Source of the DNA: an uncultured Acidimicrobiia bacterium
GTDB taxonomy: Bacteria; Actinomycetota; Acidimicrobiia; Spongiisociales; UBA11373
NCBI GenBank assembly: GCA_964354255.1
Contig: CAYGYX010000007.1
Span: 1 to 52,929, forward strand
Length of the DNA: 52,929 nt
Direction of reading: 5' to 3'
The notes beneath the pieces are model-generated. The model worked only from the letters and a program-made list of their open reading frames with translations. It did no database searches and was not told where the DNA came from. How positions within the stretch are numbered: position 1 is the first letter of the stretch; each line of letters begins with the position of its first letter. Positions 7,313 to 43,344 of the stretch are shown piece after piece. The position numbers and the translations under genes were made by a program.

Positions 7313-9376
7313 GTGGGGGCTCGTTCGTTCCCCGCCGCGCTCGGCCTGGCCGGCGCCGCCGCCTGGTGTCGGGCCCGCCTGCGGCGAGGGGCCTGGCCGG
7401 TGGTGGCGGCCGTGGTCGTTGCCGCCGCGGTGTCGGGGGCCCTGGCCGGCGAGCGGGAGCGGGCCACCCTGGAGGCGGTGGTGCCGTCGGGCAGGCTGAC
7501 CGTGGCCGGCCTCGCCGCCGACGATGCGGTGCCCCTTGCCGAAGGGGAGCGCTTCACCCTGCAGCCGAGCCACCTAGTGGTCGAGGGGCGTTGGCGATCC
7601 TGGCCGGGGCCGCGGCTGGCGGTGACCGGGCCCGCGACGGGGGTGGCAGCCGGGGAGCGGGTGCTGGTCACGGGTGCCGCCATCGCCGATTCGTTCCCGA
7701 CCGGTTCCGGGGTGGTGGCCGGGCGCCTCGCCGCCCGATCGGTGGAGCGCCTCGGCCCCGCCGCCGATCCCCTGTTCGCTACGGGGAACCTCCTGCGGCG
7801 CCGGGTGCTGGAGGGAGTGGCCGAATTCGAGGACCGCCCGGCCGCCGCCCTGCTACTGGGCTTCCTCATCGGCGACGAGACCGGCCTCCCCGACCCGGAT
7901 AGGGAGGCGCTGCGCCTGTCCGGCCTGAGCCACTTCGTGGCGGTGTCGGGCAGCAACGTGGCGCTCTTCCTCACCGCCTGGTGGCTGGCCTCCGGCCCGT
8001 TGGGATGGGGCCCGCGCCGCCGGGCCCTGCTCGGCCTGATCGGCCTGGCGGTGTTCGTGGTGGTGACCCGGTGGGAGCCGTCGGTGGTGCGGGCGGCCAC
8101 CATGGCCGGCCTCGTGCTCGGGGGGCGGCTGGCCGGGGTTGCGCTCGACGGCTGGGCGGCCTTGGGCGGGGCGGTCACCCTGCTCCTGCTGGTCTCCGGC
8201 GACCTGGCCGGCGACCCCGGGTTCCAGCTCTCGGTGGCCGCCACCGCCGGGGTGCTCGCCGGGAGTCGGCTCTTCGCGGGGCGACGGCCCCGGTGGGCCT
8301 GGACGGCGCTGGGGGCGACCGTCTCCGCCCAGGCGGCGGTGGCCCCCTTGCTGCTGGTCCTATTTGGGTCGGTCCCCCTCTTCGCCCCGCTCACCAATGT
8401 GGCTGCGGCCCCCCTGGTGGCCCTCTCCACCGCCACCGGTGGGGTGGGGGTGGTGATCGGGGCCACCCCCCTCACCGGGGTTGCCCTGCTGGCGGCCGAT
8501 GCCGTGCTCGGGGTGGCCCACTTCGGCCGGGACCTGCCGCAGCTGGGATGGGCCGGGTTGCTGGCGGTCGCCGCCGCCGGGGCCCTGGCCACGCTGCCCC
8601 GGCTACGGCCGCTCGTGGCCCTGGGCGGGGTGCTGGCGGTGGGGGCGGCCACCGTGCTGCCCGCTCATCTCCCCTCGCATCCCGAAGTCGTCTTCCTCGA
8701 CGTGGGCCAGGGCGACGCCATCTTGCTGCGCGGCCCCTCCGGCGAGGTGGTGCTGGTGGATGGTGGGCCGGACCCGGCCGTCCTCCGCCGCGCCCTCCTG
8801 GGGAGGGGCATCCGGCGCATCGACCTGCTGGTGGCCACCCACGGCCACGAGGATCACCTGGCCGGCCTGGCCGGCATCGGGCAGTGGGCGGTGGTGGGCC
8901 GGATGTGGCATTCCGGCGACGGGGGAGAGGCGCTGGAGTCGCTGGTCGCGGAGATGGAGGCGGCGGGGGTGCCGGTGGAGGTGCCCGGCCCGGGGTGGGA
9001 AGCGGAGGTGGGTGCTTTCCATCTCGAGGTGCTCGGCCCGGTGCGGCGCTATGCCTCCCCCAACGACGGCTCCTTGGTGCTGCTGGTGACCGCGGCCGGG
9101 GCCACGGTGCTGCTCCCCGGGGACATTGAGGCCATCGCCCAGGCCGACCTGGGCCCGCTGGCGGCCGACGTGCTCAAGGTCCCTCACCAGGGGGCAGCCA
9201 CCAGCGACCTCCGCTGGCTGGCAGCCTGCGCCCCGCAAGTGGCGGTGATCATCGTCGGCCCCAACGACTTCGGCCACCCTGCTGTGGAGGTGGTAGCGGC
9301 CCTGGAGGCGGCCGGGGCGGCGGTGCGCCGCACCGACCTGGAAGGGGATGTGGTCATCACGCTGGGGAGAGGGTGA
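7313..9376 (+). CDS. comEC: ComEC/Rec2 competence channel with C-terminal metallo-beta-lactamase domain
   Basis: GLSHFVAVSGSNV, SVVRAATM, FQLSV..T, FLDVGQGDA, THGHEDH; the frame stays open and hydrophobic upstream, so the true start may be earlier. Confidence 0.93.
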   Translation: MGARSFPAALGLAGAAAWCRARLRRGAWPVVAAVVVAAAVSGALAGERERATLEAVVPSGRLTVAGLAADDAVPLAEGERFTLQPSHLVVEGRWRSWPGPRLAVTGPATGVAAGERVLVTGAAIADSFPTGSGVVAGRLAARSVERLGPAADPLFATGNLLRRRVLEGVAEFEDRPAAALLLGFLIGDETGLPDPDREALRLSGLSHFVAVSGSNVALFLTAWWLASGPLGWGPRRRALLGLIGLAVFVVVTRWEPSVVRAATMAGLVLGGRLAGVALDGWAALGGAVTLLLLVSGDLAGDPGFQLSVAATAGVLAGSRLFAGRRPRWAWTALGATVSAQAAVAPLLLVLFGSVPLFAPLTNVAAAPLVALSTATGGVGVVIGATPLTGVALLAADAVLGVAHFGRDLPQLGWAGLLAVAAAGALATLPRLRPLVALGGVLAVGAATVLPAHLPSHPEVVFLDVGQGDAILLRGPSGEVVLVDGGPDPAVLRRALLGRGIRRIDLLVATHGHEDHLAGLAGIGQWAVVGRMWHSGDGGEALESLVAEMEAAGVPVEVPGPGWEAEVGAFHLEVLGPVRRYASPNDGSLVLLVTAAGATVLLPGDIEAIAQADLGPLAADVLKVPHQGAATSDLRWLAACAPQVAVIIVGPNDFGHPAVEVVAALEAAGAAVRRTDLEGDVVITLGRG

Positions 9377-14312: not shown

Positions 14313-15314
14313 ATGATGCTGGACGAGCGCAAGGCCGCCATCCTCGCGGCCCTGGTGGAGGAGCACATCCGCTGCGGCGAGCCGGTGAGCTCGGGGGCGA
14401 TCCTCGACCACAGCGCATTGCAGTGCTCGAGCGCCACCATCCGCAACGAGTTGGTGGTCCTCGAGCGCGAGGGCTACATCGTCAAGCCGCACACCTCGGC
14501 CGGCCGGGTGCCCACCGACCGGGGGTACCGGTACTACATCGACCACCTCTCTCCGGGTTCGCTGCGGCGCACCAGCCACGTGCGCATCGAGCAGTTCTTC
14601 GCCTCGATGCACCTCGGGCTGGACCGGATGCTCAAGCGGACTTCCGAGCTGCTGGCCGACGTCGCCCACTACCCCTCGGTGGTCATCGGGCCCGGCGTCG
14701 GAGGGCAGACCGTGCGCGACGCCCACCTGCTCCCGGTGGGGCCGGACAACGTGCTGCTGGTGCTGGTCACCGAGCGGGGAAGGGTGACCCAGTCGCTGCT
14801 GCGCCTGGGGGCCCCGGTGGCCCCGGCGGAGGTCGCCCGGGCCCAGCAGGCCCTGGGGGAGATGGTGGACGGCAGTGCGCTGGAGGGGATCGACGCGGCC
14901 CTTCCCGACACAACCGCTCTCGATCTCCCCGCCCCGGTGGCCGAACTGGTGGGGCGGGCGCTGCACGCGGTGGCCGACGCCGCCCGGGCCGATCGCCCGG
15001 TCTTCTTCGGCGGAACCAGCCTGATGGCCACCCTGTGGGAGGACCTCACCAAGCTGCACCGCATCCTCGCCCTCCTCGAGCGGGAGGCCTCGGTGCTCCA
15101 ACTGGTCGACGACACCTCGCGGCTGACCACCGTGCGTCTTGGCAGCGAGATGCGGGCCGGCGAGGAGGACCTGGCGGTGGTCTCGGCGCCGTACGAGGCC
15201 GCCGGGGCCACCGGGCGCGTCGGGTTGATCGGTCCCATGCGCATGGACTACCGGCGGGCGATCAAGGCCGTCGAGGAGGTCGGCGACGCCCTCGGCGACT
15301 CGCTGGGTGGCTGA
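14313..15314 (+). CDS. hrcA: Heat-inducible transcription repressor HrcA
   Basis: SSATIRNEL, PHTSAGRVPTDRGYRYY, IGPMRMDY; -10 TAACCT 6 nt upstream of ATG. Confidence 0.96.
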   Translation: MMLDERKAAILAALVEEHIRCGEPVSSGAILDHSALQCSSATIRNELVVLEREGYIVKPHTSAGRVPTDRGYRYYIDHLSPGSLRRTSHVRIEQFFASMHLGLDRMLKRTSELLADVAHYPSVVIGPGVGGQTVRDAHLLPVGPDNVLLVLVTERGRVTQSLLRLGAPVAPAEVARAQQALGEMVDGSALEGIDAALPDTTALDLPAPVAELVGRALHAVADAARADRPVFFGGTSLMATLWEDLTKLHRILALLEREASVLQLVDDTSRLTTVRLGSEMRAGEEDLAVVSAPYEAAGATGRVGLIGPMRMDYRRAIKAVEEVGDALGDSLGG

Positions 15315-16404
15315 GGTGGTGGACTACTACCAGGTCCTCGGGGTGGGCCGCGACGCCTCCCAGGACGAGATCAAGCGGGCCTTTCGGCGCAAGGCGCGCG
15401 AGACCCATCCCGACGCCAACCCTGGGGATGCCGGGGCCGAGCACCGCTTCCGGGAGGCCGCCCTGGCCTACGAAGTGCTGAGCGATCCGCCGCGCCGGGC
15501 CGCCTACGACCGCGGGGCGCAGTTCGAATCCGGCGAGTTCTTCTCCTCCTTCGCGGGTATAGACGACCTGCTCTCCCGCTTCTTCGGGGGAGGGCTGGGG
15601 TTCACCTTCGCCGAGGGACGGGGACCGGCCGCCGGGGCCGACGTTGGGGTGGCCATGGAGCTCACCCTTGCCGAAGCGGCCGGGGATTGCTCCCGCGAGG
15701 TCCGCTATCGGGCCCGGCTCACCTGTCGGGCCTGCGGCGGCGAAGGCGCGGCGCCGGAGAGCCCGCCGGTGGTCTGTGACCGGTGCGCCGGCCGGGGCTC
15801 GGTGCGAGTGACCCGGCAGACCTTCCTGGGCGCGGCCGTGTCGATCGTCACCTGCGACAAGTGCCGGGGCCGGGGGCGGGTGATCACCACCCCCTGTCCT
15901 GGCTGCGGCGGGTCGGGGTCGGTGATCGACGAGGCGGTAGTGACGGTGGAGATCCCGGCGGGCATCGAGGACGGCTCCCGCGTGCGGGTGCCGGGCAAGG
16001 GCTCGGCGGGCGAGCCCGGGGGACGGCCGGGCGACCTCTACGTTGAGGTGCGAGTCGTCTCCGACCCCCGCTTCCAGCGTCACGGGGCCGACCTGGTGCA
16101 CCGAGCCCGGCTCGGCCTGGCCGAGGCCGCCCTGGGCATCACGATCAAGGTGCCCACGGTCGATGACGGTGAAGTGGACATGGAGGTGCCGCCGGGGACC
16201 CAGCCCGGCACGGTGTTCAAGCTCTCCCGCCTCGGTATGCCCCGGCTGCGGAGGCGAGGCAGAGGGGACCTCCTCGTGGAGGTGCAGGTGGTGGTGCCCT
16301 CCACACTCAGCGCGGCCCAGGAGGAGGCGCTGCGGGCCTTCGCCGCCGCTTCGAACGAACCTGCCGGCGCCCGGCCCCGGTCGCGCCGCCGCCGCGCTCG
16401 GTAG
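15307..16404 (+). CDS. dnaJ: Chaperone DnaJ (class A, DnaJ2-type locus)
   Basis: J domain with HPD, four CxxCxGxG repeats, GDLYVEV C-terminal domain. Confidence 0.96.
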   Translation: MAEVVDYYQVLGVGRDASQDEIKRAFRRKARETHPDANPGDAGAEHRFREAALAYEVLSDPPRRAAYDRGAQFESGEFFSSFAGIDDLLSRFFGGGLGFTFAEGRGPAAGADVGVAMELTLAEAAGDCSREVRYRARLTCRACGGEGAAPESPPVVCDRCAGRGSVRVTRQTFLGAAVSIVTCDKCRGRGRVITTPCPGCGGSGSVIDEAVVTVEIPAGIEDGSRVRVPGKGSAGEPGGRPGDLYVEVRVVSDPRFQRHGADLVHRARLGLAEAALGITIKVPTVDDGEVDMEVPPGTQPGTVFKLSRLGMPRLRRRGRGDLLVEVQVVVPSTLSAAQEEALRAFAAASNEPAGARPRSRRRRAR

Positions 16405-16460
16405 CGTTCGGCTACAGTGGCTGTCGGCAGGAACGAGTGGCTTCGGCTGCGGTCTGTGGC

Positions 16461-16501
16461 TAGTATGACAACACAGCGCGGTTCACTCGAACACTGAGTG
16501 T
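16461..16501 (+). promoter_or_regulatory. Putative -10 (TAGTAT) followed by BldD-box-like sequences
   Basis: TAGTAT 16461-16466; GAACACTGAGTGT matches the ACNCWGNGT core of the BldD box; CACTC-N7-GAGTG inverted repeat. Confidence 0.45.
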
Positions 16502-16529
16502 GTCGGCGCCGGGGGAGTCGGAGGAGCGC

Positions 16530-17015
16530 ATGGAAGCGACACCCGCCTACAGCGAGATGGTCGGGGCACGGCTGCGGTCTATCCGCAAGCAGCGAGGGCT
16601 GTCCCTTCAGGACGTGCAGCGGCTGTCGGGAGGGGAGTTCAAGGCGGCGGTGGTGGGTGCTTACGAACGCGGCGAGCGCAGCCTTTCCTTGCCTCGCCTG
16701 CGGCGGCTCGCCGCCTTTTTCCAGGTGCCTATGGGCCAGTTCCTCCCGTCGGAGGAGGCCAGGGAGAAGACCATCACGCCTCTCCCGGGCGGCGGGATCA
16801 CCATCGACCTGACTGCCCTCGAGCGCCTCGGAGGCACCGAGGCCGAGATCTTCGACCGCTTCCTCCGTTCCATCCAGATCATGCGCCAGGACTTCAACGG
16901 CAGGGTTCTCACCATCCGGCGAAACGACCTCCGCCTGCTTGCCCTCCTTCTCGACCAGAACGAGGAGGCCTTCGCCGAGCGCCTCGTCGCGCTCGGCCTG
17001 GCCGAGGGCCTCTGA
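16530..17015 (+). CDS. bldD: BldD-like XRE/HTH regulator with C-terminal c-di-GMP-binding domain
   Basis: GARLRSIRKQRGLSL..GEFKAAVVGAYERGER resembles the BldD HTH; RQD-FNGRVLTI-RRND fits RxD-X8-RxxD; GGAGGAG SD before ATG 16530. Confidence 0.85.
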   Translation: MEATPAYSEMVGARLRSIRKQRGLSLQDVQRLSGGEFKAAVVGAYERGERSLSLPRLRRLAAFFQVPMGQFLPSEEAREKTITPLPGGGITIDLTALERLGGTEAEIFDRFLRSIQIMRQDFNGRVLTIRRNDLRLLALLLDQNEEAFAERLVALGLAEGL

Positions 17016-17097
17016 GGCCGGCCCCGTCCCGCCTTCGGGCCGGCGGAGGCCCCGGCGGTATACTCGAATCCCCCGTGCTTCCCCAACGAGGCTTCCT

Positions 17098-18072
17098 GTG
17101 ACCCAGGCTTCCCCCAGCGAGGCCCGGCTGCGCGTCCCCGACGATCGGATGGCCGGCCTGCTCGGCGAGCGCGACGCCCTGCTCCGGCTCGTAGAGCAGG
17201 GGTTCCCGCGGGCGCGGATCGTGGCCCGCGGCGACGAGCTGCGCATCAGCGGCGACGAGCGGACGGCTGCTTTGGCGAAGAAGGTCTTCGAGGAGCTGCT
17301 CGTCCTCATGGCCCAAGGGCAGCGCCTCGACGAGGATCGGGTGCGGCGGGTGGTGGACCTGGTGAAGGCGCAGTTGCCCAGCCCTTCCAGTGTGTTCACC
17401 GATGGGGTGTCGGTGGGACGGGGCAAGATGGTTCGCCCCAAGAGCCTCAACCAGAAGCGCTACCTGGATGCCATCCGGGCCGACACCGTGGTCTTCGCCA
17501 TCGGGCCGGCCGGGACGGGGAAGACCTACCTGGCGATGGCGCTGGCGGTGGAAGCCCTGACCAGCGGGGCGGTGAGCCGCATCATCCTCACCCGGCCGGC
17601 GGTGGAGGCCGGGGAGCGCCTCGGCTTCCTCCCCGGTGATGTGGCCGCCAAGGTCGATCCGTACCTCCGGCCGCTCTACGACGCCCTCTACGACATGCTC
17701 GGGCCGGAGGAGACCCAGCGCCTGGTGGAGCGGGGGACCATCGAGATAGCCCCGCTCGCCTACATGCGAGGGCGCACTCTCAACGACGCCTTCGTGGTGC
17801 TCGACGAGGCCCAGAACACCTCGCCTGAACAGATGAAGATGTTCCTCACCCGCCTGGGCTTCAACTCCAAGATGGTGGTCACCGGCGACATCACCCAGGT
17901 CGACCTGCCCGATGGACGCGGCTCCGGCCTGCGCCAGGTGCGCCACGTTCTGCCGGGCATCGAGGGGATGAGCTTCGTGGAGCTGACGTCCGACGACGTC
18001 GTTCGCCACCGCATCGTGGCGACGATCATCGAGGCATACCGGCGCTACGAGGAGGGAGTGAGGGCCAGATGA
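17098..18072 (+). CDS. phoH: PhoH family ATPase
   Basis: GPAGTGKTYLA, RIILTRPAVEAGERLGFLPGD, YMRGRTL, DEAQN, TGDITQVDL; -10 TATACT at 17059-17064. Confidence 0.95.
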   Translation: MTQASPSEARLRVPDDRMAGLLGERDALLRLVEQGFPRARIVARGDELRISGDERTAALAKKVFEELLVLMAQGQRLDEDRVRRVVDLVKAQLPSPSSVFTDGVSVGRGKMVRPKSLNQKRYLDAIRADTVVFAIGPAGTGKTYLAMALAVEALTSGAVSRIILTRPAVEAGERLGFLPGDVAAKVDPYLRPLYDALYDMLGPEETQRLVERGTIEIAPLAYMRGRTLNDAFVVLDEAQNTSPEQMKMFLTRLGFNSKMVVTGDITQVDLPDGRGSGLRQVRHVLPGIEGMSFVELTSDDVVRHRIVATIIEAYRRYEEGVRAR

Positions 18073-20381
18073 GGCTGGCGGCCCGGACCTCCGGGGCCAT
18101 CCGGGCGGTGGTCCTCGCGGTGACCGTCGTCTTCGTCGCCGTCGTGCTCGTGGCCGGACAGGGGGACGAGGTGGAGGCGGTGGTCCTCGAAGAGGGGCAG
18201 CCGGCCCCGCAGACCTTCATCGCCACCAGCAACGTCTCGGTGGACGACGAGGCGGCCACCGAGGAGGCCCGCGTGGCGGCGGCCCTGGGCGTGGAGGACG
18301 TGTACACGGCCGACCCCAACGCCGCCTCGGCCGTGCTGACCAGCGTCCAGGACTTCTTCACCAACGCCGACCGGGTGGTCGAGCCCCTGGAGATTCCCAG
18401 CGATGACCCCGGGGTGACCCCCAGCCTGACTACCACCTCGACCACCATCCCCGAGACCACCACGTCGGAGGGCACGTCCACCACCTCCGGGGAGACCACC
18501 ACCACCTCCGGTGAGACCACCACCAGCGAGGCCACTACCACTACCACCACGACCACCACCCTGCCGCCCCCGCCGCCGGAAGAGGTGCAGATCGCCGAGT
18601 TGCGCGAGCTGCACCCGTTGCTGCGCACCGAGACCGTCCAGGTGATGGTGGCCATCCGCAACGACGACCTCGACCGGGTCGAGGCGGGCGAGACCGAGGT
18701 GTTCCCCCTCGTCGAGACGGAGGCCCTCACCCTGGCCAACACCTACCTCGCTGAGGGGATCCGCTCCGGGGAGCTGGAGAGCACCCGCAACGAACTGGTC
18801 AGCGACCCGCCGACCCTGATCCTGCTGCGCGACCTGCCCGAAGAGCAACGGGTGGTCGCCGAGGGCGGAGTGGCCGACCTGGTGGCCACCTCCTTGCAGC
18901 CGAACCTCTTCCCCGACGAGGCTGCCACCCAGCAGGCGCGCCAGCAGGCCCGCGCTGAGGTGAGCGTGATCACCGTGGCCTACGTCGCCGGGGAGAACAT
19001 CGTGAGTGCCGGCGAGCTGGTGACCGCGGTGCGGTTGCAGGCGATCGAGGAATTGGGCCTGCTCGCCCCGGTCGAGGAGTCGCCCTCGCTGGTTGCCATG
19101 GCGTTGATCGCCGCCCTGATGGTCGTCCTCGCCGCCTTCTACCTGTGGCGGGTGGGGCGGGAGTACTGGCAGCAGCCCAAGATGGTGGCGCTCTTCGGCC
19201 TGCTGCTCGTCCTGGCGGCGGCGGCGGCCCGGCTGCCCGGCCTCATCGCCCGCGACCGGGTCGAACTGGGTTTCCTGATACCGGCGGCCTTGCTCGGCTA
19301 CCTGGCAGCGAGCCTGTTCGATTCCCGCACCGCGGTAGTCATGGCGATCCCGGTGGCCGCCTTCACCGCCCTTGCCACGGAGAGCGCCCCGCTGGTCATC
19401 TTCGCCGTGGGTGCCACCCTGGCCCCGATCCCCCTGGTCTCGGTGGTGTCCTCGCGGGCCCAGCTGAACCTGGCGGTGGCGCTCAGCGCCGCCCTGCACG
19501 CCCCCCTGGCGGTGGCCGTGTCCTGGTTCTTCTACGGCGGCGACAGCCTGCCCTGGGCGGCGGTATTCGGGACGGCCTCCGGTCTCATCTCCGGGGTGGC
19601 CGCCCTGGGGCTGCTCCCCTTCCTCTCCTCTTTGTTCGGAATCACCACCACCCAGACCCTCCTCGACCTGACCGACCGCAACCACCCCGCCTTGCGACTG
19701 CTGGAGGAAGAGGCCCCGGGGAGCTTCAACCACAGCCTCATGGTGGGGAGCCTGGCGGGGAAGGCGGCCCGGGCGGTGGGCGGCAATCCGCTGCTCGCCC
19801 AGGCCATGGCCTACTACCACGACTTGGGCAAGACGGTGTCGCCGCAGTACTACGTGGAGAACCAGTTCGGGGTGTCCAACCCGCACGACTCGCTGCCCCC
19901 GGAGCAGTCGGCGGTAGTGGTGCGCAGCCATGTAGCCGAGGGGTTGCGCCTCTCCCGGGAGCACGGCATCCCGCCCGACGTGGCCCAGGCCATCGTCACC
20001 CACCACGGCACCAGCCTGATGCGTTTCTTTTTCCACAAGGCCATCGAGCTCTACGGGGAGGATGAGGTCGATCCTGCCGACTACCGGCATCGCGGCCGCA
20101 AGCCCCGCTCCAAGGAGATGGTGGTGGTCATGATGTCCGACTCCTGCGAGGCGGCGGCACGGGCGCTGGTCCAGCACGAGGACCCCACCAGCGAGAGCCT
20201 GCGCAACCTGGTCGAGCAGGTGATCTCCGAGAAGGTGGAGGACGGGCAGCTCGAGGAGTCGCAGGTCACCTTCGGCGAGCTGACCCGCATCAAGGAGACC
20301 ATCGTCGACGGCCTCATCGGCTACTACCACGCCCGCATCCCGTACCCCGGCTTCCCGGGAAGGAGCGTGCCGTCGTCATGA
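18069..20381 (+). CDS. 7TM-HD family phosphohydrolase (PgpH-like cyclic-di-AMP phosphodiesterase)
   Basis: N-terminal TM, extracellular domain, 7 TM block, APGSFNHSLMV, YYHDLGK, HHGTS, SDSCEAAAR. Confidence 0.85.
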   Translation: MRLAARTSGAIRAVVLAVTVVFVAVVLVAGQGDEVEAVVLEEGQPAPQTFIATSNVSVDDEAATEEARVAAALGVEDVYTADPNAASAVLTSVQDFFTNADRVVEPLEIPSDDPGVTPSLTTTSTTIPETTTSEGTSTTSGETTTTSGETTTSEATTTTTTTTTLPPPPPEEVQIAELRELHPLLRTETVQVMVAIRNDDLDRVEAGETEVFPLVETEALTLANTYLAEGIRSGELESTRNELVSDPPTLILLRDLPEEQRVVAEGGVADLVATSLQPNLFPDEAATQQARQQARAEVSVITVAYVAGENIVSAGELVTAVRLQAIEELGLLAPVEESPSLVAMALIAALMVVLAAFYLWRVGREYWQQPKMVALFGLLLVLAAAAARLPGLIARDRVELGFLIPAALLGYLAASLFDSRTAVVMAIPVAAFTALATESAPLVIFAVGATLAPIPLVSVVSSRAQLNLAVALSAALHAPLAVAVSWFFYGGDSLPWAAVFGTASGLISGVAALGLLPFLSSLFGITTTQTLLDLTDRNHPALRLLEEEAPGSFNHSLMVGSLAGKAARAVGGNPLLAQAMAYYHDLGKTVSPQYYVENQFGVSNPHDSLPPEQSAVVVRSHVAEGLRLSREHGIPPDVAQAIVTHHGTSLMRFFFHKAIELYGEDEVDPADYRHRGRKPRSKEMVVVMMSDSCEAAARALVQHEDPTSESLRNLVEQVISEKVEDGQLEESQVTFGELTRIKETIVDGLIGYYHARIPYPGFPGRSVPSS
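18428..18578 (+). repeat. Thr-rich/poly-Pro low-complexity linker with a 21-bp tandem repeat
   Basis: ACCACCTCCGG(G/T)GAGACCACC twice at 18480-18521; run of Thr codons then PPPPP. Confidence 0.85.
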
Positions 20382-20842
20382 GCCTCTTCATCGGCGACGA
20401 GCAGGACGAACCGGTCGACACGGCCGGCCTGCGCGCGTTGGCCGCGGCCGTGCTGGCGGCCGAGGGGCTGCCCGCCGACTGTGAGATGGCGGTGATCCTG
20501 GTGTCTAGCGAGCAGATCGCCGAATACAACCGGCAGTTCATGGACCGGACGGGTGCCACCGACGTGCTCGCCTTCCCCCTCCAGGACCTGGAGCCGGGGA
20601 AGGTGCCGCCCCCGGTGGCCAATGAGCCCCCGCTGACCCTGGGCGATGTCTTCCTCTGCCCGGCGGAGATCCGGCGGCACGCCGCCGAGGAGAAGGTGGA
20701 CTTCGAGGACTACCTCCGTTGGCTGGCCGTGCACGGCGTTCTCCACTTGCTCGGCTACGACCACGACGATGACCGCTCGGCCGAGCGCATGGAAGAGCGC
20801 GAAGAGGAACTGCTCGCCATGATGGGCCGGAGGATGCCGTGA
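20378..20842 (+). CDS. ybeY: rRNA maturation endoribonuclease YbeY
   Basis: TDVLAFP, LGDVFLC, HGVLHLLGYDH zinc motif. Confidence 0.95.
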   Translation: MSLFIGDEQDEPVDTAGLRALAAAVLAAEGLPADCEMAVILVSSEQIAEYNRQFMDRTGATDVLAFPLQDLEPGKVPPPVANEPPLTLGDVFLCPAEIRRHAAEEKVDFEDYLRWLAVHGVLHLLGYDHDDDRSAERMEEREEELLAMMGRRMP

Positions 20843-28753: not shown

Positions 28754-29881
28754 TCACAAGCGCTTCGGGTACCAGCAGTGGTCGTGGGCGTCCCGATGGT
28801 GTCTGCGGCACAACAGCCGCAGGTTGGCCAGATCCGTGGTTCCGCCTTGGGCCCAGTGTTGGAGGTGATGGGCGTCGCACCAGCGTGCCGGCACCCCACA
28901 TCCGGGATGGGTACAACCCTGGTCCCGCAGATCCAGGGCCCGGCGCAGGGCTGGGGGGACGATCCGGTGCCTTCGGCCGATCTCCACCGGCTCCGAACCA
29001 CCCTGGAGGACCAGCCGGGAGACGGAGGCATCGCAGGCCAGACGGCGGACGGCTTCGACGCTGATGGGTCCGGCTTCGGTGTCCACCAGACCGGAGTCCT
29101 CGCGGAGGCTTTCCCAGGGGACGGTGACCGTCACATGCGGCCGCTGGCCTGCAGACCCTTGTCCTCCGTCGAGGTGGCGGCGGCAGACTTCGACCAGGGC
29201 GTCGGCCCGGCACTGCGCCGGGGTCCGTGTGTCCTGCGGGTCCAGGGCAGCCGGTTCAGCCAAAGAGCGCAGGGCGGCCAGCACGACAGAGCCGCCTTCC
29301 GGGTCGAGGTCCCCGTCCAGGTGGACCATCCCGGACCAGGCGGGTGAAACGTGCAAAGCCCGCCGGGCGAACACCCGCTGCGTGTCCGCCACGGCTCCTT
29401 CGGGATCGGTGCTGCGCCGCCACTCCGACAGGGCCTGCGGCAGTCTCTGGGAAGACACCGAGGCGGCCTGAGCGACCAGATGCTTCTCGTCCCGGGTGAA
29501 CTGCTCCGGAGCCAGATCGTGCGCCTGGGCCAGCAGCCGCACCCTCGGCTCAGACACCAGCCCAGCCGCAAACGCGGCGCGGGTCTCCGGCATCTCCTCC
29601 AAAGCCGTGGCCACCCCCACCCGACTGCGGCACACTGCGGCCGGGTCCCCCGACAGCGCCATCAGCCACGCGGTAGTGGACCCGTAGCCTTCCTGACGGG
29701 CCACCCCCCGCCGTTCCGCCTCGGCGATGAACTCCGCCCGACGGGCCGCCACCTGAGCCCCCAGACGATCCAGGCCGCGCAGACCCTCTGCCAGGCCGGC
29801 ATTGGACACCCCCACCAGTGGGAAGCCGAACACCGGCGGGAACTCCGACGACTCCACTCGAGGAGAGACTCCGACGCTCAC
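28754..29881 (-). CDS. DUF222 + HNH endonuclease domain protein (13E12-repeat-like)
   Basis: QCRADALVEVCR, RPHVTVTV, RRLACDA, RDQGCTHPGC..CDAHH..W..GGTTDLANLRLLCRRHH. Confidence 0.9.
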   Translation of the reverse strand: MSVGVSPRVESSEFPPVFGFPLVGVSNAGLAEGLRGLDRLGAQVAARRAEFIAEAERRGVARQEGYGSTTAWLMALSGDPAAVCRSRVGVATALEEMPETRAAFAAGLVSEPRVRLLAQAHDLAPEQFTRDEKHLVAQAASVSSQRLPQALSEWRRSTDPEGAVADTQRVFARRALHVSPAWSGMVHLDGDLDPEGGSVVLAALRSLAEPAALDPQDTRTPAQCRADALVEVCRRHLDGGQGSAGQRPHVTVTVPWESLREDSGLVDTEAGPISVEAVRRLACDASVSRLVLQGGSEPVEIGRRHRIVPPALRRALDLRDQGCTHPGCGVPARWCDAHHLQHWAQGGTTDLANLRLLCRRHHRDAHDHCWYPKRL

Positions 29882-29960
29882 CCCACCTATCTATCAGCCA
29901 CCTGTGACATCCCCGGCAAGGCCCCGGCACCCCCGCGGTCGGCACCATCGTGAGACAGCA

Positions 29961-35255: not shown

Positions 35256-37019
35256 ATGGCCTACCGACGGGAAGACATCGAGGCGGTGCGGGCCGCAACC
35301 GACCTGGCGGAACTGGTGGGCGAGGTCACCAAGGTGCAGCGCGCCGGCCGCGCCGTCATGGCCGTCTGCCCCTTCCACCAGGAGAAGGCTGCCTCGCTCT
35401 CGATCGACCCGGCCCGCGGCCTGTACCACTGCTTCGGCTGCGGCAAGAGCGGCGACCTGTTCCGCTTCGTGCAGGAGATCCACCACCTCGACTTCAACGA
35501 TGCCGTGGAGCTGCTCGCCCGCCGCGCCGGCGTTCCCCTGCACCGCGACCCCGAAGCCGCCCGGCGCAAGAGCCGGCGGGAAGCCCTGATCGCCGCCGTG
35601 GAGAAGGCCGTCGAGTTCTACCACCGGCGCTTGCGCCGGGCCCCCGATGCCGCCGCCGCCCGCGGCTACCTGCGGGGCCGTGGCTACGGGACCGACCAGG
35701 TGGCCGCCTACCGCCTCGGCTACTCGCCGGAGGGGGGCGACGTGCTGGTGCGCTCGCTGCGCGAGGAGCAGGTTCCCGAAGAAGTCATGCTGGCGGCCGG
35801 CCTGGCCGCCAGTTCCCGGTCGGGGCGCCTGTTCGACCGGTTCCGGGACCGGGTCATGTTCCCCATCTTCGACGTGCGGGGCGACCCGGTGGGCTTCGGG
35901 GCGCGCCTGCTGGCCGGGGAGGGACCGAAGTACCTGAATTCGCCCGACAGCGCCATCTACCAGAAGTCCCACCTCCTCTACGGGTTGAACTGGGCGAAGT
36001 CGGCCATCGTGCGCGAGGGCCTGGCGGTGGTGGTGGAGGGCTATACCGACGTCATCGCCCTGTCCGAGGCTGGTCGGCCGCTGGCGGTGGCCACGTGCGG
36101 CACCGCCCTCGGCGAGGGCCACCTCGACCTCCTCCGTCGGTTCACAGAGCGAGTGGTGCTCATGTTCGACGCCGACGAGGCAGGGGTGGAGGCCAGCCTG
36201 CGGGGCTTCGAACGCAGCGTCCCCGGTGATCTCGATCTCCGGGTCGCCTTGCTGCCGGCCGGGCGCGACCCCGCCGACCTGGCCAGCGCCGGGGAGACGG
36301 CGTTGCTCGAGGAGGCGATTCAGGCTTCGGTGCCCCTCCTCCACTTCCGCATCGAGAAGGAGCTGGAGCGCCACGACCTGGGCGAGGCCGAGGCGCGGGG
36401 GAGGGCGGTGCGAGCGGTGGCGGCGTTCGTGGCCCGCCACCCCGACGCCGTCACCCGGCACGAGTACGCAGTCGAGGTGGCCCGGCGCACCGGCGTGGCC
36501 CTGGAAGTCGTGACGAGCGCGGTGGGGCAGGCGGCTCGCCAGGCCCCGCCGGAGGCCTCCCGGCCGGCCCCTGCCCAGGAGCGCCTCAGCGGTGAGGAGA
36601 AGGCGGAGCAGGAACTGCTCCGCCTCATGTTGGCCAACCACCCCGGGGTGCGCTCCGCGCAGGTGACGGAGGGCCTCTTCACCCGGGCCGAGCACCGGGC
36701 TGCCCACCGGCTGCTGGCCCCGGCCCTCGCCTCGCTGCCCCCGGGCGAGGCCCCCGACCTGGGCGCGCTACTGGGAAGCCGCGAAGCGGCCGATGTATCT
36801 GGCATGCTCGCTGCCCTGGCCATGGTCGACCGCCCGCTGGCCGACGATGCCGCCGGACTGGTGGCCCGGCTGGAGGCCGGGGCGCTCGACCGCCGCATGG
36901 AGGAGCTGCGGCGCAAGCTGGCTGAGGCCGAGCGGACGGCGGGCGGGGCCCCTTCTCCCTTGCTCGAGGAGTTGATAGCTTTGGAGCACCGCCGCCGCGA
37001 CCTTCGGAGCCCCGCGTGA
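35256..37019 (+). CDS. dnaG: DNA primase
   Basis: CPFHQEK..HCFGC zinc finger, [40 protein letters not shown]. Confidence 0.96.
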
Positions 37020-38149
37020 ACCGCATCGCCCAGGAGGTGTTCCACGACCTGGCCCGCCGGGCGCGCCAACGCGGGTTCGTCATGATGGCCGAGGTCCAGC
37101 AGGAGCTGGAAGACGCCGACGCCCCGGCCGATGGCTTCGACCAGGTGGTGGAGGCGCTGCGCGAGGTGGACGTCGAGGTGCGGGAGGACTCGCCCGAGGC
37201 GGTGTACGGCGCGGTGGCCGGCATGGACGAGATCGAGGTGTCCGACCCGGTCCGCATGTACTTGCAGGAGATCGGCCGGGTGCCCCTGCTCGACGCCCAG
37301 CAGGAGGTCGAGCTCTCGATGCAGATGGAGACCGGCCGGCGCGCCGCCGAGAAACTGCGTGTCGGCGGGGAAGCCGGCCCGGCGGAGAAGGCCATCCTGG
37401 AGCGGGCTCGGCGCGAAGGAGAGCGGGCCCAGCAGCGCCTGGTGGAAGCCAACCTACGCCTGGTGGTCTCCATCGCCAAGAAGTACGTGGGGCGTGGGAT
37501 GCCTCTGCTCGACCTGGTCCAGGAAGGCAACCTGGGGCTGATGCGGGCCGTGGAGAAGTTCGACTATCGCAAGGGATTCAAGTTCTCCACCTATGCCTCG
37601 TGGTGGATCCGCCAGGCGGTGACCCGGGCCCTGGCCGACCAGGGCCGCACCATTCGGGTGCCGGTGCACATGGTCGAGACCATCAACAAACTGGCGGCCG
37701 TGCAGCGCAACCTCAACCAGGAGCTGGGTCGCGAGCCCACCATCGAGGAGATCGCCCGCGACCTGGAGCTGGAGCCCGCCAAGGTGAGCGAGTTGCGCCG
37801 CATCGCCCAGGACCCGGTGTCGCTGGAGACGCCGCTGGGGGAGGAGGACGACTCCACCCTGGGCGACTTCGTCGAGGACACCGAGGCAGAGGCGCCGGTG
37901 CGGGCGGCCTCCTTCAAGCTGCTCCAGGAGTACCTGGGGGTGGTGCTCGAGGAGTTGAACGAGCGGGAGCGCCAGGTGCTGGTCATGCGCTTCGGCCTGG
38001 CCGACGGCCGGATCCACACCCTTGAGGAGGTGGGGCGGCACTTCAACGTGACCCGGGAGCGCATCCGGCAGCTGGAGACCAAGGCGGTGGCGAAGCTGCG
38101 TCAGCCCTCCCGGGCGCGCAAGCTGGAGGGCTACCTGGGCGACGCCTAA
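37016..38149 (+). CDS. sigA: Primary sigma factor SigA/RpoD
   Basis: [57 protein letters not shown]; follows dnaG. Confidence 0.93.
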
Positions 38150-38441: not shown

Positions 38442-38518
38442 TCCGGGGTAGCTCAATTCGGCAGAGCAGCGGACTGTTAATCCGTGTGTTGGGAGTTCGA
38501 GTCTCCCCCCCGGAGCCA
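38442..38518 (+). tRNA. tRNA-Asn(GTT)
   Basis: TCCGGGG/CCCCGGA acceptor stem, GCGGA-CTGTTAA-TCCGT anticodon arm, GTTCGA, encoded CCA. Confidence 0.97.
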
Positions 38519-38596
38519 CCCCTGACCTGGGGTCATGGTTGCCCTCGGTCTGCACCGTGGAGCCCACCCTGCACCCGGTTGCACAGGCGGTTGCAC

Positions 38597-38878
38597 GTGA
38601 GAGGCCCCCGCCCCGACCCCGCGCCCGTCGAGCAGCTCTCCTGCGCCGTCTGCGGACGGCAGCGTCCCGAGCATGCGGAGGGCGCTGAGCGCCCCTGGCC
38701 GCTCTCCGAAGAGGACGCCGCCCGGTTCACGGATGGGGAGCTCCTTGTTCTCGTCCGTCTGGAGACCGGGCGTTGCGCGGGTGGGTTAGACCCACCACTG
38801 CCGTCCCTTGCTGAGCGGCCCCGCATCCGGGAGGCGGCCAAGGTCACCCAGGGCCGGTGGCCTCCTGGCGGAAGGTGA
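38597..38878 (+). CDS. Possible small hypothetical protein or relic with CxxC
   Basis: SCAVCGRQRP in an open frame; no SD or family recognised. Confidence 0.2.
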   Translation: MRGPRPDPAPVEQLSCAVCGRQRPEHAEGAERPWPLSEEDAARFTDGELLVLVRLETGRCAGGLDPPLPSLAERPRIREAAKVTQGRWPPGGR

Positions 38879-39065
38879 GCCGCCACACCGTCGTGGCATG
38901 GGAGCTGGCCGTGGGCCACGGCTGGGGGGTCTTCGTCGCGATCCTGGCCTGCGTCGGGCACGCGGCGACGCGCCTCGGAGGGGAGGGGCGGCTGCTGCCC
39001 GGGCCGCTCTTGAGCGGTCGGGTCCAGCCGGGCAGGGCTTGGAGGCGGGCGGGCGACCCTCGCTC

Positions 39066-39275
39066 CTACTGGCTAGGCGGCTCAAACCGAGGGCCTGGCT
39101 TGACCCCCGGCTTCTTGGGGCGCACCCGGGTCTTGGCGGGCTTGGGCTGCTTGAGGTAGCACCAGTACTCGTCGACGGCCACCAACTCCCAGCCTTCGTC
39201 TCCCAGTGCATTCAGCTGCTCCAGGCCTCCGCTGGGTGGTGTCACCAGGTACTGCCACTTCTGTGGCTCGGCCAT
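39066..39275 (-). CDS. DUF4177-like small protein
   Basis: KWQYLV..LNALGDEGWELVAV..YLKQP; GGGAGG SD before ATG 39275; Lys/Pro-rich tail. Confidence 0.75.
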   Translation of the reverse strand: MAEPQKWQYLVTPPSGGLEQLNALGDEGWELVAVDEYWCYLKQPKPAKTRVRPKKPGVKPGPRFEPPSQ

Positions 39276-39479
39276 CCAAATCCTCCCTTCCTTGCAGTCC
39301 CCAATCATGGCCGAAGCTGTGGCCGGCAGCCGGTAACCGTCCATGCGGGCAGGTGAAGGCGGCTCCTATGAGCCCCGGCGGGCCGAGGTGGGCCGTTCGC
39401 CTCGCACCTGAGGAGCCGGCCCAGACGGAACACCGCGACTCGGCCCGGAGGGTGTTCTTCGCCCTGACCGACATGGGCA

Positions 39480-39600
39480 GGGGCTACCACCGCGGCCAAC
39501 TGCGACTCCTGCTATCCCGGCATCTGCATCCCGCCCCACCCCCCGACCTCGACTGCGGCGACATCCCCTACCGCCGGTTCACCGTCATCGGAGCCTCGGC
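39480..39600 (+). pseudogene. Relic of an excalibur-like Ca-binding Cys module
   Basis: NCDSCYPGICIPP then, after a 1-nt loss in a C run, PDLDCGDIPYRRFTVIG; no start, terminal DxDxDG-C part absent. Confidence 0.6.
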
Positions 39601-39840
39601 TGGGGGCACCGGTGGGGGCGCGGCGGCAATCGGATGACCACATCTCGGGCAGGCTGCCGCCTGGTCGGACACTCGGGCCCGACACTCGGGGCAGTTGATG
39701 AGTGCCAACAGTCACCTCCCTGACCCCGGGCCTGGGGTGCCAGCAGCCAAGCTGCTCCTGTCAGCTGCGTCTCGCCGTGGTGTGCCGCCCGGAACGCCGG
39801 ACCCCAGGGCCAAGAGCCGGCGCCCCCCGGGGCCGGGTAT

Positions 39841-40070
39841 TCGGCCGATCTTGCTCCAGGTGGCGCAGTCGGCGTCGGCGAAGGAACCGACATCGCTGGC
39901 GGCGATGGTCGCCGCGAGAGGGTTGTCGGTCAGGTCGTCAACGATTCAGTCGCCGGGCTCACCGGTGAACCCGGGCAGCCGCTCCCAGTAGCAGGGGGTC
40001 CCGTCGGAGGTCATCCGGCACCGGCCCGCCGGGATGTCGGTACCGACCACCCAGTTGCCGTTGCCGGAAG
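39841..40070 (-). pseudogene. Relic of an actinobacterial secreted/lipoprotein domain
   Basis: GNGNWVVGTDIPAG..CYWERLPGFTGEPGD*IVDD..TIAASDVGSF..CATWSKIG with in-frame TGA at 39946-39948. Confidence 0.65.
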
Positions 40071-40252
40071 CGCCCCGCTCTGGGGGAGGCGGAGACGGCG
40101 CCGGAGGGTCGGACTGTCAGTCCGTGTGCTGGGAGTCCGAGTGTCCCCCCGGAGTCACCACGGGGCGATCCTCGCCTGGACGACTCCACCGGCTCCTCCG
40201 ATCTGCCTCCAGGCCGGTGCCTTTTCGATCAGGGCATGCTGGGAACAACGGT

Positions 40253-40268
40253 GTGCCACCGGTGGCAC
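40253..40268. promoter_or_regulatory. Palindromic operator of the vapBC operon
   Basis: Perfect 16-bp palindrome GTGCCACCGGTGGCAC 10 nt upstream of the antitoxin ATG. Confidence 0.7.
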
Positions 40269-40278
40269 CAGATAGGGC

Positions 40279-43245: not shown

Positions 43246-43286
43246 GGGCTCTGTGATAGCAGCGTGCCGTGTCTTAGGGAAACCGA

Positions 43287-43311
43287 CATCCGGCGGCAGC
43301 CTGGCTCCGAA
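43287..43311 (+). promoter_or_regulatory. Putative SigK-type promoter for the DUF4397-sortase operon
   Basis: CATCC-N15-CCGAA, resembling the SigK -35/-10 consensus as recalled. Confidence 0.55.
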
Positions 43312-43344
43312 TGACGGGTGTCCCTAACAACAAGGAGATCGGAA

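What the first reader, a model, noticed from the sequence alone, without database searches (positions are those of the whole stretch)
16530..17015. BldD orthologue with an intact c-di-GMP signature in a probably non-filamentous actinobacterium
Seen: the HTH closely resembles Streptomyces BldD, and RQD-X8-RRND is at 16884-16928. Known: BldD dimerises on tetrameric c-di-GMP via RxD-X8-RxxD and is the master repressor of sporulation. Inferred: a c-di-GMP-controlled regulon of unknown function in a deep-branching lineage, possibly the ancestral role of BldD. It sits between dnaJ and phoH, where rsmE is commonly found.
Basis: partly seen in the sequence, partly recalled or inferred. Interest (0 to 1): 0.7.

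Follow-up and report, generated by a model that had tools for sequence, protein, structure and literature searches.

The report
BldD-family c-di-GMP regulator in Acidimicrobiia
The gene is a real, distant relative of the Streptomyces sporulation repressor BldD, found across a whole deep-branching class of mostly uncultured actinobacteria with its c-di-GMP-binding residues and probable DNA target intact; this extends a known regulator family and is not a new kind of system.

Summary
ORF 16530-17015(+) encodes 161 aa with an XRE-type HTH domain and a BldD-like C-terminal domain. RQD-X8-RRND lies at 16884-16928 and aligns residue for residue with BldD R114/D116/R125/D128.

The organism is an uncultured freshwater-sediment Acidimicrobiia bacterium. 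The protein is 39% identical to Streptomyces BldD and scores below NCBI's BldD equivalog cut-off. I therefore file it as a distant, probably orthologous BldD-family member, not as canonical BldD.

New here:
- The gene is present in every Acidimicrobiia locus sampled and keeps one position, hrcA-dnaJ-(rsmE)-bldD-like-(hemW/phoH). Nitriliruptoria share this position. Class Actinomycetes has bldD at pyrR|bldD|nusB.
- Across 142 cluster representatives at 50% identity, the signature residues are the most conserved C-terminal columns.
- A BldD-box-like palindrome (CAC-N5-GTG; window ACACTGAGTGTGT, 16491-16503) lies upstream of the gene in 54-71% of loci, against about 5-7% expected. This predicts autorepression.

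c-di-GMP binding, the regulon and the cell's morphology remain untested. Chandra & Chater (2014) already reported a bldD orthologue in Acidimicrobium, so this is a new member of a known kind, of moderate interest.

The parts
16530..17015 (+). bldD-like gene (161 aa plus stop)
   Evidence: ORF listing and gene calls. Pfam HTH_3 + BldD-like_C. 39% identity, E = 2e-39 to Streptomyces BldD.
16545..16748 (+). N-terminal XRE-type HTH DNA-binding domain (residues 6-73)
   Evidence: 51% identical to the BldD DBD. AF2 pLDDT is above 90 and Foldseek TM-score (target-normalised) is 0.92, rmsd 1.0 A, to 4ob4/2ewt. The recognition-helix block KA.VVG.YERG.R is conserved.
16794..17003 (+). BldD-like C-terminal domain (residues 89-158), two beta-alpha-alpha repeats
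   Evidence: PF21179, 1.5e-17. PDB 4oaz/2mc4/5khd about 1e-9. The model's secondary structure is E-H-H-E-H-H. [quoted passage not shown]
16884..16892 (+). motif 1, R119-Q-D121 (equivalent to BldD R114-G-D116)
   Evidence: The columns are 99% R and 89% D across 142 representatives.
16917..16928 (+). motif 2, R130-R-N-D133 (equivalent to BldD R125-Q-D-D128)
   Evidence: The columns are 97% R and 97% D across 142 representatives.
16491..16503 (.). predicted operator ACAC-TGAGT-GTGT (BldD-box-like palindrome, core CAC-N5-GTG), 27 nt upstream of the ATG
   Evidence: It is the only [AT]CAC-N5-GTG[AT] in the 52.9-kb window. The same core is found upstream of the orthologue in 40/56 and 43/80 Acidimicrobiia loci, against about 5-7% expected. 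33 of the 90 such sites in those loci (about 1.27 Mb) lie within 250 nt upstream of this gene. The positive control found a perfect box in 80/80 Streptomyces bldD promoters. No RNA structure there exceeds shuffled controls.
16461..16466 (+). -10-like hexamer TAGTAT (conserved as TA[GA][TC]AT in close relatives)
   Evidence: Conserved block GCTA..ATGA in the alignment of 12 upstream regions. The strict sigma-70 scan did not call it. Inferred only.
16520..16524 (+). ribosome-binding site GGAGG
   Evidence: Read from the sequence. GGAG is invariant in the upstream alignment.
15307..16404 (+). dnaJ (upstream neighbour; hrcA lies at 14313-15314)
   Evidence: Pfam domains on identical contigs. Synteny in all loci.
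17098..18072 (+). phoH (downstream neighbour), followed by pgpH-type 7TM-HD 18069-20381 and ybeY 20378-20842
   Evidence: Pfam PhoH 1.2e-96; 7TMR-HDED/7TM-7TMR_HD/HD; YbeY.

Best explanation
The gene encodes the Acidimicrobiia version of the BldD family of transcriptional repressors. An N-terminal XRE-type HTH domain reads a pseudo-palindromic operator (core CAC-N5-GTG, close to the Streptomyces BldD box TNAC-N5-GTNA). The C-terminal BldD-type domain carries the bipartite RxD-X8-RxxD signature.

By analogy with BldD, two C-terminal domains that do not otherwise touch are bridged by a c-di-GMP oligomer, a tetramer in Streptomyces. High c-di-GMP therefore makes a DNA-binding dimer and low c-di-GMP releases the targets. 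One target is the gene's own leader (16491-16503), giving negative autoregulation. The rest of the regulon is unknown.

Shown here: homology of both domains, conservation of the signature, class-wide conservation and synteny, and enrichment of the palindrome.

Inferred: c-di-GMP binding, its stoichiometry, repression, and autoregulation.

Evolutionarily it is most simply the same vertically inherited gene as bldD. It sits in what is probably the older chromosomal position (hrcA-dnaJ-rsmE-X-phoH). The pyrR|bldD|nusB position of class Actinomycetes would be derived.
For: Domains and fold.

Signature:
- It aligns exactly with R114/D116/R125/D128.
- In an alignment of 22 Acidimicrobiales-type members (37% mean column identity), the only invariant C-terminal residues are these four. 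The same holds for a Nitriliruptoria/Actinomycetes-type set.
- Across 142 cluster representatives at 50% identity they are 99/89/97/97% conserved, and three of them are the top-ranked CTD columns.
- Tschowri 2014 shows that these four residues specify guanine and that charge-swapping them abolishes binding (PMC4151990).

Operator:
- De novo, CAC-N5-GTG is the commonest gapped palindrome upstream of the gene: 28/43 non-redundant loci, against 17 or fewer for GC-rich competitors.
- It occurs in 40/56 and 43/80 loci, against a background of 0.2-0.34 sites per kb.
- A perfect TNAC-N5-GTNA occurs in 16/54 and 6/80 loci, against about 1.5% expected. The Streptomyces control gave 80/80.
- No neighbouring gene shows the enrichment.
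- BldD represses bldD in Streptomyces (PMC4255298).

Synteny and vertical inheritance.

c-di-GMP signalling in this class: GGDEF genes with an I-site were found in two Acidimicrobiales loci, and twin-motif RsiG is reported in 3 of 4 Acidimicrobiales (PMC8325347).
Against: - No binding or expression data exist; no RNA runs hold the locus.
- Only 33-35% identity to BldD in the CTD, and the AF2 confidence for the CTD is moderate (pLDDT 57-74).
- The phosphate contact K84, reported as K/R in all canonical BldDs (PMC4151990), is Gly89 here and is variable in the family (K 27%, R 20%, G 18%).
- No GGDEF, EAL or HD-GYP gene lies in the window, and the rest of this genome could not be inspected.
- The window's own box matches only 4 of the 6 specified positions of the Streptomyces consensus. 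Three close relatives (L003, L004, L006) have the ACAC/GTGT arms 6 nt apart, not 5, and L001 has none.
- The enrichment counts are not phylogenetically independent.
Confidence: 0.72

Rival explanations
1. It is a BldD-fold regulator that has diverged in ligand use. [quoted passage not shown] The tetramer switch would then not apply.
For: K84 is Gly. CTD identity to BldD is only 33-35%. About 10% of family representatives have lost the motif-1 Asp while keeping motif 2, so half-site variants exist. BldD itself loads motif 2 first (PMC5499655).
Against: The window protein keeps all four specifying residues with the exact X8 spacing, and its clade never varies them. Near-invariance of both motifs across deep divergence is hard to explain if motif 1 were dispensable. 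The Asp/Arg contacts to guanine N1/N2/O6 exclude adenine nucleotides (PMC4151990).
Confidence: 0.15
2. It is a local regulator of the conserved housekeeping cluster it sits in (hrcA-dnaJ heat-shock genes, or phoH-pgpH-ybeY-era RNA/ribosome-quality genes). It would then not be a global BldD-like regulator.
For: The position is invariant across two classes. The intergenic gaps to dnaJ (125 nt) and phoH (82 nt) are short, and no intrinsic terminator follows the gene.
Against: The operator motif is enriched only upstream of the gene itself, not upstream of hrcA, phoH or other neighbours. The lepA...era block is conserved macro-synteny, and it persists in the sampled Nitriliruptoria loci. In Actinomycetes the gene works from a different locus.
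Confidence: 0.08
3. It is a generic XRE-family regulator, such as an antitoxin, phage-type repressor or restriction-modification controller. The RxD-X8-RxxD match would then be coincidental.
For: Weak HTH-only similarity to C.AhdI, C.BclI, DdrO, SinR and RstR.
Against: Those hits cover only the HTH. The CTD matches only BldD, by both sequence and fold. The gene has been fixed in a housekeeping locus across all 139 Acidimicrobiia loci retrieved, with no mobile-element neighbours. The motif columns are the best conserved in the CTD.
Confidence: 0.02

Closest known systems
BldD of Streptomyces coelicolor/venezuelae (SCO1489; PDB 2ewt, 4ob4, 4oaz, 4oay, 5khd, 5tzd)
   Same: Same two-domain architecture and length (161 against 166-167 aa). 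The DBD is 51% identical, with TM-score 0.92. The CTD has the same beta-alpha-alpha x2 fold. R114/D116/R125/D128 equivalents are present with identical spacing. A TNAC-N5-GTNA-like palindrome lies in front of its own gene.
   Different: 39% overall identity, against 77-99% among canonical BldDs. Below the NCBIfam equivalog cut-off (140 against 250 bits). K84 is Gly. The operator consensus is shifted to [N]CAC-N5-GTG[N]. The genomic context is hrcA-dnaJ-(rsmE)-X-phoH, not pyrR|bldD|nusB. The host is an uncultured Acidimicrobiia bacterium with no known sporulation programme.
bldD 'orthologue in Acidimicrobium' noted by Chandra & Chater 2014 (PMC4255298)
   Same: Same class and the same inference: an ancient gene present in early actinobacteria, with a possible stationary-phase role in simple forms.
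   Different: That report predates the c-di-GMP discovery and says bldD orthologues 'always show ... local synteny'. Here the Acidimicrobiia genes are shown to lie in a different, class-specific context, with the signature and operator analysed.
RsiG-(c-di-GMP)-WhiG switch in unicellular Rubrobacter (Schumacher et al. 2021, PMC8325347)
   Same: A precedent for a Streptomyces developmental c-di-GMP effector that exists in deep-branching, non-sporulating Actinomycetota and controls a different output there.
   Different: It is an unrelated protein family (anti-sigma factor), binds a c-di-GMP dimer and not a tetramer, and has been verified experimentally.
Generic XRE/Cro-C1 HTH regulators (C.AhdI, C.BclI, DdrO, SinR, ClgR)
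   Same: The five-helix HTH_3 fold of the N-terminal domain.
   Different: None of them has the BldD-like C-terminal domain or the RxD-X8-RxxD signature. Similarity is limited to about 65 residues at E of 1e-4 or weaker.

Membership tests
BldD-like family (XRE HTH + Pfam PF21179 BldD-like_C) | N-terminal HTH_3/HTH_31 domain followed by a BldD-like_C domain above the Pfam gathering score | tested here: met
   HTH_3 scores 40.4 bits (cut-off 23). BldD-like_C scores 63.6 bits (cut-off 27), covering profile positions 2-68 of 70.
BldD-like family (XRE HTH + Pfam PF21179 BldD-like_C) | CTD fold of two beta-alpha-alpha repeats, matching solved BldD CTD structures | tested here: met
   AF2 secondary structure is E89-93/H/H103-116/E126-130/H/H. 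Foldseek TM-score (target-normalised) is 0.76-0.78 to 4oaz/5khd/5tzd, probability 1.00. Model confidence in the CTD is only moderate.
BldD (c-di-GMP-dependent repressor, sensu Tschowri 2014) | Bipartite signature RxD-X8-RxxD (R114, D116, R125, D128) | tested here: met
   R119-Q-D121-X8-R130-R-N-D133 is aligned column for column. It is conserved in all close homologues and in 89-99% of the family.
BldD (c-di-GMP-dependent repressor, sensu Tschowri 2014) | Basic residue (K/R) at position 84 contacting c-di-GMP phosphates, reported as conserved in all canonical homologues | tested here: not met
   The window has Gly89 at this column. Family-wide the column is K 27%, R 20%, G 18%.
BldD (c-di-GMP-dependent repressor, sensu Tschowri 2014) | Binds tetrameric c-di-GMP, which dimerises the protein and stimulates DNA binding | not testable with these tools
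   This needs DRaCALA/ITC/SEC/EMSA with purified protein.
BldD (c-di-GMP-dependent repressor, sensu Tschowri 2014) | Recognises the BldD box 5'-TNAC(N)5GTNA-3' and autoregulates | tested here: inconclusive
   A related palindrome is strongly enriched upstream of the gene across the class. The window copy is ACAC-N5-GTGT (core matches, outer T/A do not). No binding data are available.
BldD equivalog (NCBIfam NF050110, the model NCBI uses to name a protein 'BldD') | Whole-protein score at or above the curated cut-off of 250 bits | tested here: not met
   It scores 140.4 bits, E = 4.2e-41. This is the top hit by far but below the cut-off.
bldD orthologous group (positional) | Local synteny pyrB-pyrR | bldD | nusB-efp, as in class Actinomycetes | tested here: not met
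   Streptomyces, Micromonospora, Actinoplanes, Amycolatopsis and other Actinomycetes show it. The window and all 139 Acidimicrobiia loci, plus Nitriliruptoria, have hrcA-dnaJ-(rsmE)-X-(hemW/phoH) instead.
bldD orthologous group (phylogenetic) | A single copy per genome whose tree follows the species tree | tested here: inconclusive
   No MAG gave two loci. A rough NJ tree separates the Acidimicrobiia clades from the clade holding canonical BldD; the Nitriliruptoria-type representative P0140 falls on the canonical side. Whole genomes could not be searched, and the tree is distance-based with no support values.

The most novel reading that the evidence does not exclude
The hrcA-dnaJ-rsmE-bldD-like-phoH-ybeY position shared by Acidimicrobiia and Nitriliruptoria is the ancestral home of bldD. 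In these non-sporulating lineages the BldD-(c-di-GMP) switch would control a pre-developmental programme, for example entry into stationary phase or dormancy, surface attachment, or its own c-di-GMP enzymes. That programme would later have been co-opted for sporulation when the gene moved next to pyrR/nusB in the ancestor of class Actinomycetes. This would give BldD the same kind of evolutionary story as RsiG-WhiG.
Probability: 0.3. Interest if true: 0.7.

Novelty: new member of a known kind. Interest (0 to 1): 0.42.

Why it matters
BldD-(c-di-GMP) is the top switch of Streptomyces development, and its function outside sporulating actinomycetes is unknown.

This analysis shows three things. 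The whole class Acidimicrobiia, abundant in soils, sediments, waters and activated sludge, keeps a BldD-family gene. Its four nucleotide-specifying residues are the most conserved part of the sensor domain. A BldD-box-like operator precedes the gene. Together these make the ancestral-function question directly testable: one protein, one 13-bp probe, one ligand. A class-specific operator consensus would also allow regulon prediction in complete genomes.

It also corrects the published generalisation that bldD orthologues always share local synteny. It does not reveal a new mechanism.

Tried and rejected
1. Generic XRE, antitoxin or phage-repressor reading. Rejected, because the CTD matches only BldD and the gene is fixed in a housekeeping locus.
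2. RNA-structure explanation for the upstream palindrome. Folds of 16470-16530, 16395-16460 and 17010-17075 are no better than shuffles (z between -0.02 and 0.66). Rfam finds only tRNAs in the window.
3. CIRCE/HrcA element. Rejected, because CIRCE has a 9-nt spacer between longer arms and lies upstream of hrcA/dnaJ operons, not here. This is reasoned from known consensus, not tested.
4. Strict sigma-70 promoter and terminator scan around the gene. No promoter was called, and the only terminator-like hits lie inside the CDS. The -10 assignment therefore rests on conservation only.
5. Looking for c-di-GMP enzymes. None was found in the Pfam-scanned window ORFs. A GG[DE]EF regex over 1.27 Mb of Acidimicrobiia loci found only two genes.
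6. Taxonomy of the metagenomic cluster representatives through the listing of cluster members gave almost no names. I solved this with genome-contig scans instead.
7. Expression evidence. No RNA runs hold the locus.
8. Regulon prediction from neighbours. The operator is not enriched upstream of any other mapped gene. A single box in front of a GGDEF gene in L166 is not matched in L171, so it remains only a lead.

Full report
OBSERVATION. The window (52,929 bp, 71.7% G+C) carries an ORF at 16530-17015 on the + strand. It has an ATG start, a GGAGG ribosome-binding site at 16520-24, and encodes 161 aa. Gene callers on four identical public contigs chose the same start. Pfam finds HTH_3 (3.1e-10) and BldD-like_C PF21179 (1.5e-17; 63.6 bits against a cut-off of 27). 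Against PDB sequences the two best groups of hits are the BldD DNA-binding domain (2ewt/4ob4, 1.9e-16, query 6-73) and the BldD C-terminal domain (2mc4/4oaz/5khd/4oay, about 1e-9, query 89-158). In the HMMER and BLASTP alignments it lies on RGD-X8-RQDD of BldD, that is R114, D116, R125 and D128. Full-length identity to a Streptomyces BldD read from locus L064 is 39% (E = 2e-39).

STRUCTURE. An AlphaFold2 model built on 48 homologues has mean pLDDT 73, above 90 in the HTH domain and 57-74 in the C-terminal domain. [quoted passage not shown] Foldseek against the PDB returns only BldD structures at the top. The DBD entries 4ob4/2ewt give TM 0.92, rmsd 1.0 A and 51% identity. CTD-c-di-GMP complexes 4oaz/5khd/5tzd give TM 0.76-0.78 and 33-35% identity. 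Generic XRE proteins match the HTH only.

WHOSE GENE IT IS. The nearest genome records are uncultured Acidimicrobiia MAGs; L001, on CAWCKE010000005.1, is 96% identical. Reads holding the locus come from freshwater-sediment metagenomes. The window itself is a housekeeping block: leuS, comEA, comEC, holA-like, greA, lepA, hemW, hrcA, dnaJ, the gene, phoH, a PgpH-type 7TM-HD protein, ybeY, a CBS/CorC protein, era, recO, uppS, glyS, dnaG and a principal sigma factor. No GGDEF, EAL or HD-GYP gene was seen in it.

HOW WIDESPREAD.
- The word-indexed search found 4,889 homologues. The exhaustive search found 1,020 cluster representatives at 50% identity with E of 1e-10 or better.
- All 120 closest homologues and every intact copy in 59 genome loci keep R.D-X8-R..D.
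- The nearest clades outside the window's own are again Acidimicrobiia: Acidimicrobiales, Ilumatobacteraceae, Microthrixaceae, Aquihabitans.
- A further clade is Nitriliruptoria, followed by Micromonosporaceae, Pseudonocardiaceae, Nocardioidaceae and Streptomyces.
- In an alignment of 22 Acidimicrobiales-type sequences (37% mean column identity), the only invariant residues in the C-terminal domain are the four signature residues. The same holds for a Nitriliruptoria/Actinomycetes-type set.
- Over 142 representatives chosen without regard to the motif, the R114, R125 and D128 equivalents are the three best conserved CTD columns (99, 97 and 97%), and the D116 equivalent is 89%.
- About a tenth of the family has lost the motif-1 Asp. 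The window protein has not.
- The phosphate contact K84, said to be K or R in all canonical BldDs (PMC4151990), is Gly89 here and variable family-wide.

SYNTENY.
- In all 59 loci of the first scan and in essentially all of the 80 Acidimicrobiales loci with enough flank, the gene follows hrcA-dnaJ and precedes hemW or phoH-(pgpH)-ybeY-CBS.
- Where about 0.9 kb separates dnaJ from the gene, the space holds rsmE (Pfam Methyltrans_RNA). A MiaB/MtaB-like radical-SAM gene or a HIT gene can follow.
- Canonical Streptomyces bldD lies elsewhere, divergent between pyrB-pyrR and nusB-efp. Micromonospora, Dactylosporangium, Salinispora, Actinoplanes, Amycolatopsis, Prauserella and a Nocardioidaceae MAG share that arrangement.
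- Nitriliruptoria share the Acidimicrobiia arrangement.
- Together with a rough NJ tree that separates the Acidimicrobiia clades from the clade holding canonical BldD, the simplest history is one vertically inherited gene that moved once, in the lineage leading to the bulk of class Actinomycetes.
- Chandra & Chater (PMC4255298) had already called the Acidimicrobium gene a 'convincing orthologue' and inferred great age. Their statement that bldD orthologues always show local synteny does not hold for these classes.

OPERATOR.
- Upstream of the gene, a de novo count of gapped palindromes puts CAC-N5-GTG first: 28 of 43 non-redundant upstream regions, with GC-rich competitors at 17 or fewer.
- The core is present within 200-220 nt upstream in 40/56 loci of set A and 43/80 of set B. 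Background is 0.2-0.34 sites per kb, so about 5-7% of loci would be expected to have one.
- Many sites are perfect Streptomyces-type BldD boxes (5'-TNAC(N)5GTNA-3'; PMC4151990), for example TCACGTAGAGTGA and TCACCGAGAGTGA. Perfect boxes occur in 16/54 and 6/80 loci, against about 1.5% expected.
- The same script finds a perfect box in 80/80 Streptomyces bldD promoters (TCACGCTGCGTAA and variants), which is the known autoregulatory site.
- Of the 90 [AT]CAC-N5-GTG[AT] sites in about 1.27 Mb of Acidimicrobiia loci, 33 lie within 250 nt upstream of this gene, and none is enriched at neighbouring genes.
- In the window the site is ACACTGAGTGTGT at 16491-16503. It is the only such site in 52.9 kb. 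It lies 24 nt downstream of a conserved -10-like TAGTAT (16461-66) and 27 nt upstream of the ATG.
- RNA folding of this leader is no better than shuffled controls, so a DNA operator is the better reading.
- Caveats: counts are not phylogenetically independent. Three close relatives have 6-nt and not 5-nt spacing between the ACAC/GTGT arms, and L001 lacks the site. The strict sigma-70 scan calls no promoter.

MECHANISM. The best-supported model (confidence about 0.7) is a c-di-GMP-dependent, BldD-type repressor. Ligand-bridged CTDs make a dimer whose HTH domains bind CAC-N5-GTG operators, including the gene's own. The signature residues read guanine N1/N2/O6 in BldD and exclude adenine nucleotides (PMC4151990). 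Motif 2 loads first and motif 1 completes the tetramer (PMC5499655). c-di-GMP signalling is plausible in the class: two Acidimicrobiales loci carry GGDEF genes with I-sites next to hrcA, and twin-motif RsiG occurs in 3 of 4 Acidimicrobiales (PMC8325347). For this organism, however, cyclases could not be checked. Three rivals were considered: altered stoichiometry or ligand (0.15), a purely local regulator of the hrcA/phoH cluster (0.08), and a generic XRE protein (0.02).

COMPARISON AND MEMBERSHIP. The protein is a member of the BldD-like family (Pfam architecture met, fold met, signature met). It is not a BldD 'equivalog' by NCBI's rule: NF050110 scores 140 bits against a cut-off of 250. It fails two features of canonical BldDs, the basic residue at position 84 and pyrR/nusB synteny. 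It most likely works like BldD. Whether the tetramer stoichiometry holds is open.

NOVELTY AND VERDICT. The literature held here has no paper that mentions both BldD and Acidimicrobiia, and only Chandra & Chater for Acidimicrobium. The c-di-GMP papers restrict their claims to sporulating actinomycetes. The existence of the gene is therefore known, and its family and likely mechanism are known. New here are the class-wide conservation, the alternative and probably ancestral synteny shared with Nitriliruptoria, selection on the signature, and the conserved operator. 'Non-filamentous' cannot be asserted for an uncultured MAG, and the family also occurs in Microthrixaceae MAGs. I rate it a new member of a known kind, with interest about 0.4. 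It is a clean, testable entry point to the ancestral role of BldD, but not a surprise to specialists.

Noticed in passing
L225, L228, L255 (Nitriliruptoria) versus L230-L275 (Actinomycetes), window 14313-20842: BldD-family genes occupy two mutually exclusive chromosomal contexts that follow class boundaries. Acidimicrobiia and Nitriliruptoria have hrcA-dnaJ-(rsmE)-X-phoH-ybeY. Micromonospora, Actinoplanes, Amycolatopsis, Streptomyces and related genera have pyrB-pyrR|X|nusB. This contradicts the published statement that bldD orthologues always share local synteny.
   Followed up: yes
window 16405-16529; L015 5235-5894; L031 5279-5914: rsmE (PF04452) lies between dnaJ and the bldD-like gene in many Acidimicrobiia but is missing from that position in the window's clade. 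A MiaB/MtaB-like radical-SAM gene or a HIT gene that follows the bldD-like gene elsewhere is also absent here.
   Followed up: partly
L166 2-896(-) with site at 905-917; L171 26-908(-): Two Acidimicrobiales loci carry a GGDEF gene (RxxD I-site plus GGDEF) divergent from hrcA. In L166 a BldD-box-like TCACAAAAGGTGT lies about 25 nt upstream of that GGDEF gene, which recalls BldD repression of cdg genes in Streptomyces. L171 has no matching site, so this is a single case.
   Followed up: partly
window 18069-20381 (+): The gene after phoH encodes a PgpH-type protein (7TMR-HDED + 7TM-7TMR_HD + HD). This is the architecture of the Listeria c-di-AMP phosphodiesterase PgpH, so a cyclic-dinucleotide hydrolase homologue lies two genes downstream of the predicted c-di-GMP sensor. 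It is probably only the conserved phoH-pgpH-ybeY block.
   Followed up: partly
window 41984-45014: An ECF sigma factor (42691-43323, -) with an RskA-type anti-sigma factor (41984-42772, -) lies divergent from a DUF4397 protein (43315-44154) and a sortase (44151-45014). This looks like a possible envelope-stress/surface-protein module.
   Followed up: no
window 36926-38149 (+) and 48587-49831 (-): Two sigma-70 genes with regions 1.2-4 lie within 12 kb. The first follows dnaG and is probably the principal sigma factor. The second is probably a group-2 paralogue.
   Followed up: no
window 8155-8245 (+): ARAGORN calls a 91-nt tRNA-Arg(CCT) inside the comEC coding region. Rfam's tRNA model does not find it at gathering score, so it is probably a false positive.
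   Followed up: partly
window 28754-29890 (-): A DUF222 ORF, a family commonly associated with HNH endonuclease domains in actinobacteria, sits between glyS and a DinB-family gene. It is the only gene in the window that looks non-housekeeping or possibly mobile.
   Followed up: no
window 38520-40280: About 1.7 kb downstream of tRNA-Asn (38442-38518) has no ORF with the strong GC3 signal of the other genes and no Pfam hit for the two ORFs tried. G+C is normal (0.66-0.73). The content is unexplained.
   Followed up: partly
L055, L056, L057 (long-read MFD MAGs): The bldD-like gene appears truncated or frameshifted in three long-read assemblies whose neighbours are intact. These are more likely assembly indel errors than pseudogenes.
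   Followed up: no
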